NCBI GenBank assembly: GCA_016710765.1 | Contig: JADJUJ010000024.1 | Location: 2,919 to 66,918 of the forward strand | Direction of reading: 5' to 3' | From: Lewinellaceae bacterium | GTDB taxonomy: Bacteria > Bacteroidota > Bacteroidia > Chitinophagales > Saprospiraceae | Length of the DNA stretch: 64,000 bases | Shown here: positions 37,114 through 39,362 of the stretch, one piece after another | Layout: each line of letters starts with the position of its first letter | Numbering within the stretch: the first letter of the stretch is position 1 | Position numbers and translations under genes: made by a program | Notes under the pieces: model-generated | Seen by the model: the letters and a program-made list of their open reading frames with translations, nothing else | What the model was told of the DNA's origin: nothing | The model's database searches: none

Positions 37114-37188
37114 GGCCCGTTCGTCTAGGGGTTAGGACGCAGGATTTTCATTCCTGTAACACGGGTTCGATTCCCGTACGGGCTACCA
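37114..37188 (+). tRNA. tRNA-Glu (anticodon TTC), CCA encoded
   Basis: Acceptor ggcccgt/acgggct. Anticodon arm cagga-TT TTC AT-tcctg. T-arm acggg-ttcgatt-cccgt. Discriminator a, then cca. Confidence 0.9.
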
Positions 37189-37190
37189 AA

Positions 37191-37216
37191 GGCTACCAGA
37201 AATGGTGGCCTTTTTT
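37191..37216 (+). terminator. Hairpin plus T6 after tRNA-Glu (repeated after tRNA fragments 1-3)
   Basis: ggctacca-gaaa-tggtggcc followed by tttttt. The 5' arm duplicates the tRNA 3' end ggctacca. Confidence 0.7.
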
Positions 37217-37234
37217 CATGATACGCAACCTGTT

Positions 37235-37482
37235 ATGTCCTGGAAAGTATATGTATTAGAAAGTTTGCGATCTGGAGTTAGGTATGTCGGGATTAGTGAA
37301 GACTTGAACCGTCGCCTGAAAGAGCACAATTCAGGTAAAACAAAGTTTACTTCGGGCATATGCCTTGGGAGTTGTTGTATCAGGAGGAAACAGAAGATGC
37401 CGCTTCTGCAAGGGCCAGAGAAAAATATTTGAAATCGGCAGCGGGGCGAAGGTTTTTGGATAAAAAACTAAATCGAGAATGA
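37235..37482 (+). pseudogene. GIY-YIG (YhbQ/UPF0213-like) nuclease ORF, copy 1, frameshifted
   Basis: MSWKVYVLESLRSGVRYVGISEDLNRRLKEHNSG... The frame is lost at cttcgggcat (G3, versus G4 in copy 2). Confidence 0.7.
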
Positions 37483-37552
37483 TTTTCATTCCTGTAGCAC
37501 GGGTTCCCCGCCCGGATGACCGGTCGGACGGGGATTCCCGTACGGGCTACCA
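37481..37552 (+). other. tRNA-Glu 3'-half copy 1 (anticodon loop to CCA) with a 26-27-nt GC-rich insert in the T-loop
   Basis: gattttcattcctgtagcacgggttc[cccgcccggatgaccggtcggacgggg]attcccgtacgggctacca. No 5' half is present. Confidence 0.85.
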
Positions 37553-37598
37553 AAGGCTACCAGAAATGGTGGCCTTTTTTCATGATACGCAACCTGTT

Positions 37599-37943
37599 AT
37601 GTCCTGGAAAGTATATGTATTAGAAAGTTTGCGATCTGGAGTTAGGTATGTCGGGATTAGTGAAGACTTGAACCGTCGCCTGAAAGAGCACAATTCAGGT
37701 AAAACAAAGTTTACTTCGGGGCATATGCCTTGGGAGTTGTTGTATCAGGAGGAAACAGAAGATGCCGCTTCTGCAAGGGCCAGAGAAAAATATTTGAAAT
37801 CGGCAGCGGGGCGAAGGTTTTTGGATAAAACTAAATCGAGAATGATTTTCATTCCTGTAGCACGGGTTCCCCGCCCGGATGACCGGTCGGACGGGGATTC
37901 CCGGGCACCAAAGGCTACCAGAAATGGTGGCCTTTTTTCATGA
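37599..37943 (+). CDS. GIY-YIG nuclease ORF, copy 2 (C-terminus altered by a short A4 run and reads through the next tRNA fragment)
   Basis: Same core sequence. ..LDK then the frame differs because the run is ggataaaacta (A4) rather than A6. Confidence 0.7.
   Translation: MSWKVYVLESLRSGVRYVGISEDLNRRLKEHNSGKTKFTSGHMPWELLYQEETEDAASARAREKYLKSAAGRRFLDKTKSRMIFIPVARVPRPDDRSDGDSRAPKATRNGGLFS
37844..37910 (+). other. tRNA-Glu 3'-half copy 2, same T-loop insert, degenerate acceptor end
   Basis: ..ggggattcccgggcacca instead of ..attcccgtacgggctacca. Confidence 0.8.
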
Positions 37944-37956
37944 TACGCAACCTGTT

Positions 37957-38196
37957 ATGTCCTGGAAAGTATATGTTTTAGAAAGTTTGCGATCTGGAGT
38001 TAGGTATGTCGGGATTAGTGAAGACTTGAACCGTCGCCTGAAAGAGCACAATTCAGGTAAAACAAAGTTTACTTCGGGACATATGCCTTGGGAGTTGTTG
38101 TATCAGGAGGAAACAGAAGATGCCGCTTCTGCAAGGGCCAGAGAAAAATATTTGAAATCGGCAGCGGGGCGAAGGTTTTTGGATAAAAAAAACTAA
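37957..38196 (+). CDS. GIY-YIG nuclease ORF, copy 3
   Basis: 79 codons ending ..RRFLDKKN* (A8 run). Confidence 0.75.
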   Translation: MSWKVYVLESLRSGVRYVGISEDLNRRLKEHNSGKTKFTSGHMPWELLYQEETEDAASARAREKYLKSAAGRRFLDKKN

Positions 38197-38205
38197 ATCG
38201 AGAAT

Positions 38206-38277
38206 GATTTTCATTCCTGTAGCACGGGTTCCCCGCCCGGATGACCGGTCGGACGGGGATTCCCGTACGGGCTACCA
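38206..38277 (+). other. tRNA-Glu 3'-half copy 3 with the T-loop insert
   Basis: Identical to copy 1 over the fragment. Confidence 0.85.
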
Positions 38278-38323
38278 AAGGCTACCAGAAATGGTGGCCT
38301 TTTTTCATGATACGCAACCTGTT

Positions 38324-38572
38324 ATGTCCTGGAAAGTATATGTTTTAGAAAGTTTGCGATCTGGAGTTAGGTATGTCGGGATTAGTGAAGACTTGAACCG
38401 TCGCCTGAAAGAGCACAATTCAGGTAAAACAAAGTTTACTTCGGGACATATGCCTTGGGAGTTGTTGTATCAGGAGGAAACAGAAGATGCCGCTTCTGCA
38501 AGGGCCAGAGAAAAATATTTGAAATCGGCAGCGGGGCGAAGGTTTTTGGATAAAAAACTAAATCGAGAATGA
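38324..38572 (+). CDS. GIY-YIG nuclease ORF, copy 4
   Basis: 82 codons ending ..RRFLDKKLNRE* (A6 run). GIY-YIG hallmarks: KVYVLES...YVGIS.., R..EHN.G, and Glu in ..YQEE... Confidence 0.8.
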   Translation: MSWKVYVLESLRSGVRYVGISEDLNRRLKEHNSGKTKFTSGHMPWELLYQEETEDAASARAREKYLKSAAGRRFLDKKLNRE

Positions 38573-38642
38573 TTTTCATTCCTGTAGCACGGGTTCCCCG
38601 CCCGGATGACCGGTCGGACGGGGATTCCCGTACGGGCTACCA
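38571..38642 (+). other. tRNA-Glu 3'-half copy 4 with the T-loop insert
   Basis: Identical to copy 1. Followed by a different (probably ancestral) terminator. Confidence 0.85.
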
Positions 38643-38647
38643 AACAT

Positions 38648-38679
38648 CCCTCGTAACTATCTGGTTATGAGGGTTTTTT
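38648..38679 (+). terminator. Rho-independent terminator closing the tRNA-Glu/GIY-YIG array
   Basis: ccctcgtaac-tatctg-gttatgaggg followed by tttttt. Confidence 0.8.
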
Positions 38680-38983
38680 GTTTTTGGGGGACAAATAAGG
38701 GACAAATAACCCTCAATTTGAGCCATTTTATCCCTGCTTAGCCAATTCGTAACGCCCCTTTCTTTCCAGGTTAATTATGAGTTTTCAGTAGTTTCAAAGT
38801 TACAGGGGAAACAGACAGGTCTCCAATTTTACCCTCCTTAACTGAACTTGTGCTGCAGGGAGCGTTTTTATCCCAACTACTTTCTTTAATGGTTACGGTC
38901 CATTCAAATTTACCCAACATTATTATGTCCCTCGCACTTACCCGCTGAAAGAGGATTCAGTGGCTATTTATTTTTACCACTTA

Positions 38984-39290
38984 GGGCTACGGTTTACACA
39001 CATCTTTGCAGCGTCCTATTTTTAGGCCCGAAGGGCCGGCATTATTGTAGTATACCGTAGATCTTGGCCTGGAATGCCGTAGGCATGGCATTAAACCCCC
39101 GAGATTTGGGCAAGTTTTACCTTAACATCAGCAAATTGGGGCTGTTTCGAATGGACACAACCATGAATCGCCGACATTGAAATGCCTTGCCTACGGCATT
39201 CCGTAAATTGGGCCTGCGGAATGCTACAATAATGCCAGCCCTTCGGGCCTAAAAATCTAATACCGTAAAGTTGTGTGTAAACCGTAGCCC
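38984..39290. mobile_element. About 307-bp foldback (MITE-like) element with ~110-nt homologous inverted arms
   Basis: gggctacggtttacacaca...tttttaggcccgaagggccggcattattgtag pairs with ctacaataatgccagcccttcgggcctaaaaa...tgtgtgtaaaccgtagccc. There is an inner inverted repeat ggaatgccgtaggca / tgcctacggcattcc. Confidence 0.7.
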
Positions 39291-39362
39291 TTAGGGGACC
39301 TACTCATGTCGCCATGGATTGAAATTGGTTGCTTCAGGCACATTATTCAGTGCCTCGCCCCC

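What the first reader, a model, noticed from the sequence alone, without database searches (positions are those of the whole stretch)
37114..38679. tRNA-Glu followed by four tandem cassettes of [terminator, GIY-YIG ORF, tRNA 3' half]
Seen in the sequence: an intact tRNA-Glu(TTC) with encoded CCA is followed by four near-identical ~363-bp units. Each unit starts with a hairpin+T6 terminator whose 5' arm repeats the tRNA 3' end (ggctacca). It then carries an ~80-codon YhbQ/UPF0213-like GIY-YIG ORF. It ends with a copy of the tRNA from the anticodon stem to CCA. After the fourth copy the sequence switches to a different terminator (38648-38679), which is probably the ancestral tRNA terminator. 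The insertion point is therefore right after ..gggctaccaaa. The only two base substitutions among the four ORFs are gta/gtt (Val) and ggg/gga (Gly). Both are synonymous and split the copies into pairs 1-2 and 3-4. This hints at selection on the protein and at duplication in blocks. Established knowledge: GIY-YIG domains are nucleases used by homing endonucleases and other selfish elements, and tRNA 3' halves are classic integration targets. No integrase or transposase is present here. Inference: this may be a small nuclease-borne cassette that homes to, or amplifies at, the tRNA-Glu 3' end.
Basis: partly seen in the sequence, partly recalled or inferred. Interest (0 to 1): 0.8.

Follow-up and report, generated by a model that had tools for sequence, protein, structure and literature searches.

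The report
tRNA-gene-parasitising mini GIY-YIG nuclease cassettes
Four tandem copies of a tiny nuclease gene sit behind a tRNA-Glu gene, each followed by a broken copy of the tRNA's 3' half, and the same design recurs at many tRNA genes in many bacteria, which points to an apparently undescribed family of selfish DNA that lives in tRNA genes.

Summary
An intact tRNA-Glu(TTC) at 37114-37188 is followed by four units of 358-367 bp. Each unit holds a hairpin with a T6 tail, an 82-codon GIY-YIG ORF, and a tRNA copy from the anticodon loop to CCA. That copy is split in the T-loop by a 26-nt GC-rich palindrome. Only unit 4 has the full ORF; unit 1 is frameshifted, possibly through a homopolymer error.

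Relatives with the same neighbouring genes carry the tRNA without any cassette. In 82 related loci from Bacteroidota, Ignavibacteria, CPR and other phyla, 74 same-strand tRNAs lie within 200 nt of the ORF or array, against 0.6 expected. Two mirror-image layouts exist, and the displaced tRNA copy is cut by palindromes at fixed positions: T-loop 56|57 or D-loop 21|22. Arrays recur elsewhere, with paralogues under purifying selection.

The protein is a minimal Slx1/UPF0213-type nuclease. The closest functional analogues are phage SegB, which recognises the tRNA T-arm and drives tandem amplification, and fungal mitochondrial mobile ORFs that carry a replacement gene end. My best reading is a selfish, homing-like cassette that targets tRNA genes and is amplified by recombination. 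The role of the palindrome is unresolved. I found no published description.

The parts
37114..37188 (+). Intact tRNA-Glu(TTC) with encoded CCA. This is the functional gene at the head of the array.
   Evidence: ARAGORN. Rfam RF00005, 62.8 bits. It is 75/75 identical to the tRNA-Glu at the cassette-free locus L088 in a related species.
37189..37216 (+). Unit 1 hairpin with T6 tail (T1, terminator-like). Its 5' arm repeats ggctacca of the tRNA 3' end.
   Evidence: Sequence. DNA fold -8.3 kcal/mol, z = -3.9. Exact copies at 37553-37580, 37911-37938 and 38278-38305.
37235..37482 (+). Unit 1 GIY-YIG ORF, frameshifted by a 1-nt G-run deletion near 37354. The N-terminal 40 codons and the C-terminal 40 codons are in different frames.
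   Evidence: The independent contig L001 has GGGG here and an intact ORF.
37481..37552 (+). Unit 1 displaced tRNA copy (tRNA positions 30-75), split in the T-loop by the 26-nt palindrome at 37507-37532.
   Evidence: Alignment. Segment mapping. Coordinates.
37553..37580 (+). Unit 2 hairpin with T6 tail (T1 copy).
37599..37943 (+). Unit 2 GIY-YIG ORF. Residues 1-76 are intact. The A-run is 2 nt short, so the stop codon is lost and the frame reads through the tRNA fragment and the next hairpin.
37844..37910 (+). Unit 2 displaced tRNA copy with the palindrome at 37870-37895 and a 5-bp deletion in the acceptor 3' strand.
37911..37938 (+). Unit 3 hairpin with T6 tail (T1 copy).
37957..38196 (+). Unit 3 GIY-YIG ORF. 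The core is intact. The A-run is 2 nt long, so the protein ends ...DKKN* (79 aa).
38206..38277 (+). Unit 3 displaced tRNA copy with the palindrome at 38232-38257.
38278..38305 (+). Unit 4 hairpin with T6 tail (T1 copy).
38324..38572 (+). Unit 4 GIY-YIG ORF, the only full-length copy (82 aa, MSWKVYVLES...KKLNRE).
   Evidence: Pfam PF01541, 56.2 bits against a cut-off of 22.6. AlphaFold2 mean pLDDT 91.7. Best structural matches are UPF0213 BH0048 and Slx1.
38571..38642 (+). Unit 4 displaced tRNA copy with the palindrome at 38597-38622. It abuts the resident downstream sequence.
38648..38679 (+). Different intrinsic-terminator-like hairpin with T-run (T2). It is probably the resident terminator of the tRNA gene.
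   Evidence: Terminator scan. Fold z = -6.2. That it is the resident terminator is an inference. Related cassette-free loci have a terminator directly after the tRNA.

Best explanation
**What it is.** The array is a locally amplified member of a large family of selfish cassettes that live in tRNA genes.

**What a cassette contains.** It has a roughly 80-aa, catalytic-domain-only GIY-YIG nuclease of the Slx1/UPF0213 type. It also has a duplicated piece of the host tRNA gene, so that one intact tRNA is always kept. A GC-rich palindrome interrupts the spare tRNA piece exactly in the T-loop (56|57) or the D-loop (21|22).

**Likely mechanism (inferred).**
- The nuclease is transcribed from the tRNA promoter. 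In this window that means read-through of the hairpin placed after the tRNA.
- It breaks or nicks tRNA-gene DNA at or near the conserved T-arm, as phage SegB does.
- Recombinational repair from a cassette-bearing copy then places [tRNA 3' end, hairpin, ORF, partial tRNA with palindrome] into the tRNA gene. This is the same topology as fungal mitochondrial mobile ORFs that bring a replacement gene end and push the native end downstream.
- Repeated breaks in the regenerated intact tRNA, repaired out of register between the duplicated 20-50-nt tRNA and hairpin segments, expand the cassette into tandem arrays.
- The palindrome probably makes the displaced copy uncuttable. It also splits the homology, so that deleting the cassette through the longer repeat would leave a dead tRNA.

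**Shown.** The anatomy, the family-wide tRNA linkage, the fixed palindrome positions, cassette-free sites in relatives, in-situ amplification, and purifying selection on paralogues.

**Inferred.** Nuclease activity, the cut site, homing, and the role of the palindrome.
For: - **Anatomy of the window:**
- **Protein:** Pfam GIY-YIG. In an alignment of 34 homologues, Y6, Y17, R27, H31 and E63 are invariant. The fold is predicted with confidence and is closest to UPF0213 and Slx1.
- **Lineage-specific insertion:** relatives whose FA_hydroxylase is 72-73% identical keep the gene order UbiD, FA_hydroxylase, tRNA-Glu. In them the tRNA is followed directly by a terminator (L088, L091) or by a different, serine-recombinase element (L090), with no cassette. 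The L088 tRNA is 75/75 identical to the window tRNA.
- **tRNA linkage:** in 82 non-redundant related loci, 74 tRNAs lie within 200 nt of the ORF or array, all on the same strand. About 0.6 would be expected from the background density in the same loci. At least 15 tRNA isotypes are involved.
- **Two layouts:** tRNA, ORF, 3' pseudo-copy in 33 loci; promoter, 5' pseudo-copy, ORF, tRNA in 37 loci.
- **Palindromes:** 57 cleanly delimited palindromic insertions were found in 44 loci. Sixteen are at T-loop 56|57 and 27 at D-loop 21|22. Of 120 palindrome-motif hits in 377 kb, 117 lie within 300 nt of the ORF.
- **Target switching:** clades of the ORF tree mix tRNA identities, so targets have changed over time, while array copies cluster by locus.
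- **Arrays elsewhere:** L011 has 5 copies at tRNA-Glu. L014, L015, L040, L058 and L064 have 2 each. Where the paralogues have diverged, pN is far below pS: L011 0.012-0.025 against 0.08-0.21, L014 0.03 against 0.22, L058 0.21 against 0.73. The L015, L040 and L064 pairs are identical.
- **Import with the cassette:** where the sequence after the intact tRNA differs from the sequence after the pseudo-copy (window, L008, L045, L077), similarity stops at the tRNA 3' end within 2 nt; in L017 about 9 further bases are shared before the two diverge. This is as expected if the tRNA itself supplies the homology.
- **Precedents:** T4 SegB recognises GGTTCRANTCC and CCAR in tRNA genes and homes together with flanking tRNA genes (PMC2330249). 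T6 SegB nuclease activity plus UvsX/UvsY drive tandem amplification of a 718-bp tRNA-plus-segB unit (PMC13096335). Fungal mitochondrial mobile ORFs carry a replacement C-terminal gene end and displace the native one (PMC3630166).
Against: - No activity, cut site or movement has been observed.
- No same-species empty site was found. Two exact-match scans of metagenome contigs returned nothing.
- The protein has no DNA-binding domain, unlike SegB or I-TevI. It belongs to the Slx1/UPF0213 branch, which a superfamily survey regarded as vertically inherited repair enzymes rather than selfish nucleases (PMC1564403). How it would achieve site specificity is therefore unclear.
- The regenerated tRNA keeps an intact T-arm, so the cassette-bearing chromosome would still be cuttable.
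- A simple homing model does not explain how both pseudo-copy segments come to match each new host tRNA.
- It also does not explain why palindromes of a conserved sequence type, sometimes several in tandem, are used rather than any disruption.
- One locus (L032) has a pseudo-copy with no palindrome.
- A small clade (L079, L081) has no tRNA nearby.
- In this window, one to three of the four ORFs carry indels.
Confidence: 0.58

Rival explanations
1. The palindrome and the nuclease together form a new kind of transposon-like unit. The Slx1-type, structure-specific nuclease acts on the GC-rich palindrome, or on cloverleaf-folded tRNA-gene DNA. The palindrome, alone or with the ORF, is inserted at loop positions of tRNA genes. 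The tRNA duplication comes from staggered breaks and fill-in rather than from allele-to-allele homing.
For: - Palindromes are tightly confined to the cassettes.
- They sit at exact loop positions, always before a G.
- They can occur several times, or in tandem, in one pseudo-tRNA (L020, L026, L042, L011).
- Their sequence type is shared across genera at different tRNAs. For example, CCTGCCTGCCGGCAGGCAGG is found in L020, L039, L060, L062 and L063.
- The duplication boundary is exact on the palindrome side but variable on the other side, reaching up to 55 nt past the terminator in L018.
- In L079 and L081 the ORF lies inside a 13-14-nt inverted repeat.
- The nearest structural relatives are Slx1 enzymes that cut branched DNA.
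Against: - To my knowledge, GIY-YIG nucleases are not known to carry out strand transfer.
- No palindrome was seen away from an ORF, which a freely mobile mini-element would predict.
- Palindrome sequences differ between lineages, with double hairpins in CPR bacteria. This fits co-inheritance as well as it fits mobility.
- No target-site duplication flanks the palindrome itself.
Confidence: 0.22
2. The array is a passive tandem duplication of a host gene. On this view the small GIY-YIG protein is an ordinary cellular UPF0213/YhbQ-like repair or RNA-metabolism factor. It happens to be co-transcribed with tRNAs, and the repeats arose by replication slippage or unequal crossing-over without any action of the nuclease.
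For: - The Slx1/UPF0213 branch is usually seen as a vertically inherited cellular family (PMC1564403).
- Array copies cluster by locus, so they arose by local duplication.
- Purifying selection is also compatible with a function useful to the host.
- In the upstream layout the ORF is part of the tRNA transcription unit.
Against: - This view does not explain why nearly every homologue is flanked by a partial duplicate of the adjacent tRNA broken by a palindrome at fixed positions.
- It does not explain why related ORFs sit at more than 15 different tRNA isotypes in several phyla.
- It does not explain why close relatives of this organism lack the gene at the same locus.
- It does not explain why the sequences after the intact tRNA and after the pseudo-copy differ in ways that suggest import.
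Confidence: 0.12
3. The four-fold copy number, the indels, or both are assembly artefacts from a long-read metagenome assembly. The true locus would then have one or two units.
For: - Both indels between the window and the independent contig L001 are G-homopolymer length differences. One of them shifts the stop codon of the upstream gene, giving 424 aa against 427 aa.
- The A-run lengths of 4, 6 and 8 are typical of homopolymer error.
- Copy number could not be checked with reads.
Against: - The independent short-read contig L001 reads from unit 1 into a second unit, so at least two units exist.
- The units carry two phased substitutions (units 1-2 versus 3-4) and a 5-bp deletion that is not in a homopolymer.
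- Comparable arrays occur in other assemblies, including 5 diverged copies on a 1.34-Mb contig (L011).
Confidence: 0.1
4. The repeated tRNA 3' halves are att-site scars of an integrase-borne genomic island that used tRNA-Glu, and the GIY-YIG ORF is cargo.
For: - Direct repeats of a tRNA 3' segment are the classic signature of island integration (established knowledge).
- In a related species the same tRNA-Glu is followed by a large serine recombinase gene (L090).
Against: - There is no integrase or recombinase in or next to the array. The ORFs there are only the GIY-YIG copies.
- Units are only about 365 bp long.
- The same design recurs in about 70 loci without integrases.
- The mirror-image form duplicates the tRNA 5' end and places the ORF inside the transcription unit.
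- Palindromes interrupt the repeats.
Confidence: 0.03

Closest known systems
Phage T4/T6 SegB, a free-standing GIY-YIG homing endonuclease in the tRNA gene cluster (PMC2330249, PMC13096335)
   Same: - It is a GIY-YIG nuclease gene embedded among tRNA genes.
- It recognises the conserved T-arm DNA (GGTTCRANTCC) plus CCAR at the tRNA 3' end.
- It promotes inheritance of itself together with flanking tRNA sequence.
- Its nuclease activity, with homologous recombination, produces tandem repeats of a unit of tRNA plus nuclease gene (718 bp in T6; about 365 bp here).
- It associates with many tRNA isotypes.
   Different: - SegB is a phage protein and, from my own knowledge, is much larger, with a DNA-binding part. 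The protein here is an 82-aa catalytic domain only.
- The protein here is of the Slx1/UPF0213 branch. TIGR01453 scores 18 bits against a cut-off of 56, and Foldseek places I-TevI and UvrC well below Slx1.
- It is chromosomal in Bacteroidota, CPR and other phyla, and rare in phage or plasmid records.
- SegB loci are not reported to have palindrome-split pseudo-tRNA fragments or the two mirror-image layouts.
Fungal mitochondrial mobile ORFs (mORFs) that carry a replacement gene end, such as Allomyces atp6 and Glomus atp6, atp9, cox2 and nad3 (PMC3630166)
   Same: - The topology is the same: gene 5' part, imported 3' end, endonuclease ORF, displaced native 3' end.
- The host gene stays functional.
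- The displaced end remains downstream as a relic.
- The endonuclease is LAGLIDADG or, in atp9, GIY-YIG.
- Spread occurs by horizontal transfer.
   Different: - The hosts there are protein-coding mitochondrial genes, and the imported end differs from the native one by synonymous changes.
- Here the host is a tRNA gene, and the two copies are identical apart from the inserted palindrome.
- A 5'-end version exists here.
- Tandem arrays occur here.
Slx1 (with Slx4) and the bacterial UPF0213 proteins BH0048 and EF2693 (PDB 1zg2, 1ywl, 6seh, 7cq2)
   Same: - These are the best sequence-profile and structural matches.
- The bacterial proteins are likewise minimal GIY-YIG domains without accessory domains.
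- Slx1 cuts branched and structured DNA and maintains tandem rDNA copy number (as summarised in PMC1564403).
   Different: - Slx1 needs Slx4 and a RING domain.
- No tRNA-gene linkage, pseudo-tRNA or palindrome has been described for UPF0213 proteins.
- Their function in bacteria is unknown.
REP sequences with RAYT, and IS200/IS605 elements (hairpin-guided mobile DNA)
   Same: Short GC-rich palindromes are tightly associated with one small nuclease gene, they multiply locally, and they insert at defined short targets.
   Different: - Those systems use HUH (Y1) transposases that form covalent intermediates. No such gene is present here.
- REPs spread genome-wide, whereas these palindromes stay within 300 nt of the ORF.
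- This comparison rests on my own knowledge and was not tested here.
Integrase-borne genomic islands at tRNA genes
   Same: The tRNA gene is the target, part of the tRNA is directly repeated, and the tRNA is regenerated at one junction.
   Different: - No integrase is present.
- Units are about 365 bp long.
- A variant that duplicates the tRNA 5' end exists.
- The repeat is interrupted by a palindrome.

Membership tests
GIY-YIG nuclease superfamily (Pfam PF01541) | The sequence matches the family profile above the curated threshold. | tested here: met
   PF01541 scores 56.2 bits against a cut-off of 22.6, E = 4.2e-15, covering residues 3-72.
GIY-YIG nuclease superfamily (Pfam PF01541) | The catalytic residues are conserved: the two Tyr of the GIY and YIG motifs, Arg, His and Glu. 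| tested here: met
   Y6, Y17, R27, H31 and E63 are invariant in 34 homologues. Assigning them to catalytic roles relies on I-TevI numbering, which I took from my own knowledge.
GIY-YIG nuclease superfamily (Pfam PF01541) | The protein has the GIY-YIG alpha/beta fold. | tested here: met
   The AlphaFold2 model has mean pLDDT 91.7 with the element order strand, strand, helix, helix, strand, helix, helix. Foldseek matches 1zg2, Slx1, UvrC and I-TevI.
GIY-YIG nuclease superfamily (Pfam PF01541) | The protein has divalent-metal-dependent nuclease activity. | not testable with these tools
   This needs purified protein.
Slx1 / UPF0213 (YhbQ-like) branch | The closest relatives by sequence and structure are UPF0213 and Slx1 rather than UvrC or homing endonucleases. 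| tested here: met
   Profile search against PDB sequences: 1zg2 at 7e-12, 1ywl at 4e-10, Slx1 at 1e-5. Foldseek TM-scores normalised to the query are 0.65-0.72 for Slx1 and about 0.5 for UvrC and I-TevI.
Slx1 / UPF0213 (YhbQ-like) branch | The protein is a minimal stand-alone domain with no accessory domain. | tested here: met
   It is 82 aa long. Homologues are mostly 78-95 aa.
Free-standing homing endonuclease (SegB or I-TevI type) | Sequence membership in the homing-endonuclease clade, with a C-terminal DNA-binding module. | tested here: not met
   TIGR01453 scores 18 bits against a cut-off of 56. No residues lie beyond the catalytic domain.
Free-standing homing endonuclease (SegB or I-TevI type) | Presence/absence polymorphism at a conserved target site. 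| tested here: inconclusive
   Cassette-free tRNA-Glu sites with conserved gene order exist in related species, with flanking-protein identity of 72-73%. No empty allele of the same species was found.
Free-standing homing endonuclease (SegB or I-TevI type) | Site-specific cleavage of the empty allele, followed by gene conversion. | not testable with these tools
   This needs biochemistry and genetic crosses.
Integrase-mediated tRNA-targeting island | A tyrosine or serine recombinase is encoded within the element. | tested here: not met
   Only GIY-YIG ORFs lie within 37189-38642. About 70 related loci show the same design without a recombinase.
Hairpin-guided HUH elements (IS200/IS605, REP/RAYT) | A Y1 HUH transposase gene is associated with the palindromes. 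| tested here: not met
   The only ORF that stays with the palindromes is the GIY-YIG ORF.

The most novel reading that the evidence does not exclude
These cassettes may be a previously unrecognised class of minimal mobile element. In this reading, an approximately 80-aa Slx1-type GIY-YIG nuclease and a GC-rich palindrome together form a self-mobilising unit. The unit recognises tRNA-gene DNA by its loop positions: T-loop 56|57, D-loop 21|22 and position 9|10. It inserts there, and it regenerates an intact tRNA by duplicating the adjoining tRNA segment. This would be a nuclease-only, integrase-free and transposase-free way of colonising essential genes. It has spread across Bacteroidota, Ignavibacteria, CPR/Patescibacteria and other phyla. 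The profile matches about 24,000 clusters of proteins at 50% identity with E <= 1e-3, although how many of those weaker matches are tRNA-linked is unknown.
Probability: 0.3. Interest if true: 0.85.

Novelty: new variant of a known kind. Interest (0 to 1): 0.72.

Why it matters
If the reading is right, several things follow.

- **A function for an orphan family.** Bacterial stand-alone Slx1/UPF0213 nucleases have solved structures but no known role. A large part of this family would turn out to be selfish elements of tRNA genes rather than housekeeping repair enzymes.
- **A new solution to an old problem.** The cassettes show how a homing-type element can occupy an essential, very short, non-coding RNA gene without an intron. 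It duplicates part of the gene and disables the spare copy with a palindrome.
- **A cellular counterpart to SegB.** Phage SegB was recently shown to amplify tRNA genes. These cassettes would be the chromosomal equivalent.
- **Genome assembly and annotation.** The cassettes explain many short contigs that break at tRNA genes in Bacteroidota and CPR assemblies, and many pseudo-tRNA fragments.
- **A possible tool.** An 80-aa nuclease with apparent specificity for tRNA-gene positions would be of interest for engineering.
- **Testability.** The predictions can be tested directly with one purified protein and a few DNA substrates.

Tried and rejected
- **Empty site in the same species.** Two exact-match scans of metagenome contigs looked for the empty-site junction (intact T-loop, tRNA 3' end, then T2) and for any junction of tRNA 3' end with T2. 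Both returned nothing, so no same-species empty or alternative allele was found.
- **Known RNA families.** Rfam at gathering thresholds finds only the two ordinary tRNAs in the window. It finds nothing in L050, L079 or L081. No known RNA family explains the palindrome or the pseudo-tRNA.
- **Defence, phage and naming libraries.** PADLOC, PHROGs and NCBIfam give only sub-threshold matches. The protein is not a recognised defence or phage family.
- **Phage and plasmid carriage.** The phage and plasmid collections give only weak hits of 42% identity or less. IMG/VR gives 17 distant relatives; of the 13 checked for tRNAs, one has an abutting tRNA. A phage or plasmid vector is therefore not supported.
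- **Recent jumps.** I looked for an identical protein next to different tRNAs. P0011 and P0111 each occur in a single genomic context across many samples, so no recent transposition was caught.
- **Inverted repeats around the ORF.** A check for inverted repeats flanking the ORF as a general feature found them only in L079 and L081.
- **Literature.** Eight full-text searches combined GIY-YIG, tRNA gene, hairpin, T-loop, Bacteroidetes, YhbQ/UPF0213/COG2827 and related terms. None found a description of tRNA-linked small GIY-YIG cassettes. They did yield the SegB and mORF analogues.
- **Ideas considered and rejected.**
  - A split or intron-containing functional tRNA. To my knowledge bacteria lack the archaeal-type tRNA splicing machinery, the window copies lack the 5' half, and the palindromes have no known intron features.
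  - Integron attC-like or CRISPR-like repeats. No integrase or cas genes are present.
- **Promoter and terminator scan.** The sigma-70 promoter scan gives only chance-level hits on the opposite strand. The terminator scan did not flag T1, although T1 folds as a 10-bp hairpin followed by T6.

Full report

ARAGORN and Rfam both call an intact tRNA-Glu(TTC), with CCA encoded, at 37114-37188. Tandem Repeats Finder reports a period-367 array of 4.1 copies at 98% match, with score 2857. Exact-string mapping puts the unit starts at 37189, 37553, 37911 and 38278, the ORF start codons at 37235, 37599, 37957 and 38324, and the T-loop inserts at 37507-37532, 37870-37895, 38232-38257 and 38597-38622.

Each unit begins with AAGGCTACCAGAAATGGTGGCC followed by T6. 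This folds as a 10-bp hairpin with z = -3.9, and its 5' arm repeats the tRNA end ggctacca. After the fourth unit a different terminator-like hairpin follows at 38648-38679.

However, the alignment also shows four indels:
- a 1-nt G-run deletion that frameshifts the unit-1 ORF;
- A-runs of 6, 4, 8 and 6 bases that alter the C-terminal ends of the unit-2 and unit-3 ORFs;
- a 5-bp deletion in the unit-2 tRNA fragment.

Only unit 4 encodes the full 82 aa.

An independent short-read contig of the same species (L001, 99% identical) reads from the upstream gene through the tRNA and unit 1 into a second unit. Its unit-1 ORF is intact. The only two indels between it and the window are G-homopolymer differences. 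The repeat is therefore real. A copy number of four is plausible but unverified, and some of the indels may be residual long-read errors.

**2. The protein**

The ORF matches Pfam GIY-YIG at 56 bits against a cut-off of 22.6. In an alignment of 34 homologues, Y6, Y17, R27, H31 and E63 are invariant. An AlphaFold2 model is confident, with mean pLDDT 91.7.

The best matches by sequence profile and by structure are the bacterial UPF0213 proteins BH0048 and EF2693, followed by the nuclease domain of Slx1. UvrC and I-TevI score well below these. The group-I-intron endonuclease model TIGR01453 is far below its threshold.

The protein is therefore a catalytic-domain-only nuclease of the Slx1/UPF0213 branch. 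A superfamily survey regarded this branch as the minimal, vertically inherited form and derived the selfish GIY-YIG enzymes from the other (UvrC-like) lineage (PMC1564403).

**3. The cassettes are an insertion**

The window comes from a MAG labelled Lewinellaceae or Saprospiraceae. Relatives whose upstream FA_hydroxylase is 72-73% identical keep the gene order UbiD, FA_hydroxylase, tRNA-Glu(TTC). In them the tRNA is followed directly by its own terminator (L088, L091). In one case it is followed by a serine-recombinase element (L090). None has a GIY-YIG cassette. The L088 tRNA is 75/75 identical to the window tRNA. Two exact-match scans for an empty allele of the same species found nothing.

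**4. The pattern is family-wide**

A scan of one genome per species found more than 572 relatives, and I analysed the best 80 loci. In 82 non-redundant loci, 74 tRNA genes lie within 200 nt of the ORF or array. All 74 are on the same strand. About 0.6 would be expected from the tRNA density in the outer flanks of the same loci. At least 15 isotypes are involved.

Two mirror-image layouts occur.
- **Layout A (33 loci, as in the window):** intact tRNA, ORF, then a copy of the tRNA 3' part. In Bacteroidota a terminator usually lies between the tRNA and the ORF; CPR loci have only a spacer of 11-28 nt.
- **Layout B (37 loci):** the native promoter, a copy of the tRNA 5' part, the ORF, then the intact tRNA with no spacer. 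The ORF often ends on the tRNA's own T8-A9-G10 or on the TAG in its D-loop.

Most of the 12 loci that fit neither layout are cut by contig ends or by runs of N, and still show the pseudo-tRNA and palindrome.

Distant GIY-YIG relatives on viral contigs lack the linkage. Only 1 of the 13 viral loci checked has an abutting tRNA. The linkage is therefore specific to this family.

A profile search finds 24,116 clusters at 50% identity with E <= 1e-3, and 6,380 with E <= 1e-10.

**5. The palindrome**

In the displaced tRNA copy, homology to the intact tRNA is interrupted by GC-rich palindromes of 16-76 nt. In Bacteroidota they have the form 5'-CCYGCCYG...CRGGCRGG-3'. In CPR bacteria they are a double hairpin.

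Of 57 cleanly delimited insertions in 44 loci, 16 lie at T-loop TTC|GA (56|57), 27 at D-loop GGATA|GAGC (about 21|22), and 3 at position 9|10. In almost every delimited case the insertion sits just before a G.

They fold significantly better than shuffled sequence, with a median z of -3. Of 120 motif hits in 377 kb, 117 lie within 300 nt of a GIY-YIG ORF, so this is not a genome-wide REP-like repeat.

Several homologous proteins end in GSLPD*. This is the translation of GGTTC plus the start of the palindrome, so the junction is old. Some pseudo-tRNAs carry two or three palindromes, or tandem palindromes (L020, L026, L042, L011). One has none (L032). In a small clade without tRNAs (L079, L081) the ORF lies inside a 13-14-nt inverted repeat.

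**6. Arrays and selection**

Arrays occur elsewhere. L011 has five copies at the same tRNA-Glu in a Lewinellaceae MAG. L014, L015, L040, L058 and L064 have two each. Array copies cluster by locus in the ORF tree, so arrays arise in place. The clades mix tRNA identities, so targets have changed over time.

Where the paralogues have diverged, they differ mainly at synonymous sites: L011 pS 0.08-0.21 against pN 0.012-0.025, L014 0.22 against 0.03, and L058 0.73 against 0.21. The L015, L040 and L064 pairs are identical. Several copies therefore stay under purifying selection. In the window, the two synonymous changes are too few to say anything.

The flanks fall into two groups.
- In some loci the sequence after the intact tRNA equals the sequence after the pseudo-copy. 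The duplication then includes the terminator, reaching up to 55 nt past the tRNA in L018.
- In others (window, L008, L045, L077) the two sequences differ, and similarity stops at the tRNA 3' end within 2 nt; in L017 about 9 further bases are shared before the two diverge. This is as expected if the cassette was imported with only the tRNA as homology.

**7. What is known**

Eight full-text searches found no description of these cassettes. Two analogues are close in how they work.

- **Phage T4 SegB.** This GIY-YIG homing endonuclease lies in the tRNA gene cluster. Its 27-bp site contains the T-arm motif GGTTCRANTCC, and it cuts preferentially just after CCAR at the tRNA 3' end. It drives inheritance of itself together with flanking tRNA genes (PMC2330249). 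In T6, SegB nuclease activity together with UvsX/UvsY recombination produces tandem repeats of a 718-bp unit of tRNA-Tyr plus segB. SegB homologues co-localise with tRNAs of many isotypes in phage genomes (PMC13096335).
- **Fungal mitochondrial mobile ORFs.** These insert into atp6, atp9, cox2 and nad3. They bring a replacement C-terminal gene end and push the native end downstream (PMC3630166). This is the same topology as layout A.

**8. Most likely mechanism**

I think these are selfish cassettes of tRNA genes. The nuclease is transcribed from the tRNA promoter. It breaks tRNA-gene DNA at or near the conserved T-arm in layout A, or the D-arm in layout B. Repair from a cassette-bearing copy installs the cassette while keeping one intact tRNA. 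Repeated breaks in that intact tRNA, repaired out of register between the duplicated tRNA and hairpin segments, generate the tandem arrays.

The palindrome would protect the displaced copy from cutting. It would also split the homology into pieces of 16, 9 and 20 nt in the window. Recombination through the longer left-hand repeat would then leave a tRNA with a palindrome in its T-loop, which would be non-functional.

- **Shown:** the anatomy, the linkage, the fixed positions, cassette-free sites in relatives, in-situ amplification, and selection.
- **Inferred:** every biochemical step.

Weak points of this model:
- the protein has no DNA-binding domain;
- the regenerated tRNA still carries the presumed target;
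- simple homing does not explain how both pseudo-copy segments come to match each new tRNA;
- it does not explain why conserved, sometimes multiple, palindromes are used.

**9. Rivals**

- **A palindrome-plus-nuclease unit that behaves like a transposon.** This would explain the exact boundary on the palindrome side, the multiple palindromes, and the clade with the ORF inside a hairpin. It has no mechanistic precedent for GIY-YIG enzymes.
- **Passive duplication of a host gene.** This cannot explain the pseudo-tRNAs, the many isotypes, or the cassette-free sites.
- **An assembly artefact.** This could change the copy number and the indels, but not the existence of the repeat.
- **An integrase island scar.** This is excluded by the lack of any recombinase and by layout B.

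**10. Verdict**

I class it as a new variant of a known kind: free-standing nuclease elements that target tRNA genes or carry replacement gene ends. There is a real chance that the pairing of palindrome and nuclease is a new mobility mechanism.

Noticed in passing
window 38977-39297: About 300 nt downstream of the array lies a large imperfect inverted repeat. Its arms are 84 nt long, 83% complementary and 153 nt apart. A nested pair of 22-nt arms, 95% complementary, lies at 39071-39092 and 39181-39202. The repeat sits in a stretch of about 700 nt (38680-39360) with no long ORF. It could be a MITE-like element or a structured RNA.
   Followed up: partly
window 37025 and 37354, compared with L001 1416 and 1746: The only two indels between the window and an independent contig of the same species are single-G homopolymer differences. 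One moves the stop codon of the FA_hydroxylase gene (424 aa against 427 aa). The other frameshifts the unit-1 ORF. This suggests residual homopolymer errors in the window assembly.
   Followed up: partly
window 37479-37943 and 38204-38572: The stop codon of each GIY-YIG ORF overlaps an ATG (gagaATGAtttt). That ATG opens a frame with no stop codon through the tRNA fragment, the palindrome and the hairpin, running into the next ORF (154-aa and 122-aa ORFs). Successive units are therefore linked in one reading frame. In the profile search, several large-database proteins match the family in two stretches, which may be similar fusions.
   Followed up: no
L090 3403-4999: In a related species the orthologous tRNA-Glu is followed immediately by a 520-aa large serine recombinase gene on the opposite strand, with Resolvase, Recombinase and Zn_ribbon_recom domains. 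The same tRNA gene is therefore also used by a different, recombinase-borne element.
   Followed up: no
L079 about 2470-2740 and L081 about 2480-2760: A small clade of homologues has no tRNA nearby. Instead the ORF is bracketed by a 13-14-nt inverted repeat (CCCCGTTAGAAAT / ATTTCTAACGGGG and CCCCGTTAGAGAAA / TTTCTCTAACGGGG), so the gene sits inside a hairpin.
   Followed up: partly
L011 2260-2370 and 2770-2945: In the Lewinellaceae five-copy array, the pseudo-tRNA after each ORF is nearly full length. It carries tandem repeats of a unit of about 27 nt (ccgggtaaaccacgtctccttcggagc) inserted at the anticodon stem; the number of copies differs between the array's units. It carries further hairpins after T-loop position 59.
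   Followed up: no
Layout-B loci, for example L039 2725-2760 and L063 2727-2760: The GIY-YIG ORF runs straight into the intact tRNA and often uses the tRNA's conserved T8-A9-G10, or the TAG in its D-loop, as its stop codon. The ORF end lies 10 or 23 nt inside the tRNA. The native Bacteroidetes-type promoter (TAnnTTTG) sits upstream of the displaced 5' fragment, so the ORF and the tRNA share one transcript.
   Followed up: partly
L050 about 2720-2940: The tRNA-like sequence downstream of this cassette matches a tRNA 5' part up to the anticodon stem. It then continues with about 200 nt of unrelated, structured-looking sequence. ARAGORN calls no tRNA and Rfam finds nothing. It may be an intron-containing or disrupted tRNA.
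   Followed up: partly
CPR/Patescibacteria loci L027, L031, L033, L051, L070, L076, L083: In CPR genomes the T-loop insert is a different, double-hairpin sequence (TGCGCCAAAGGCGCA followed by CTCGCCTCTGGCGAG), but it sits at the same TTC|GAA position. There is no terminator between the tRNA and the ORF; the spacer is 11-28 nt.
   Followed up: partly
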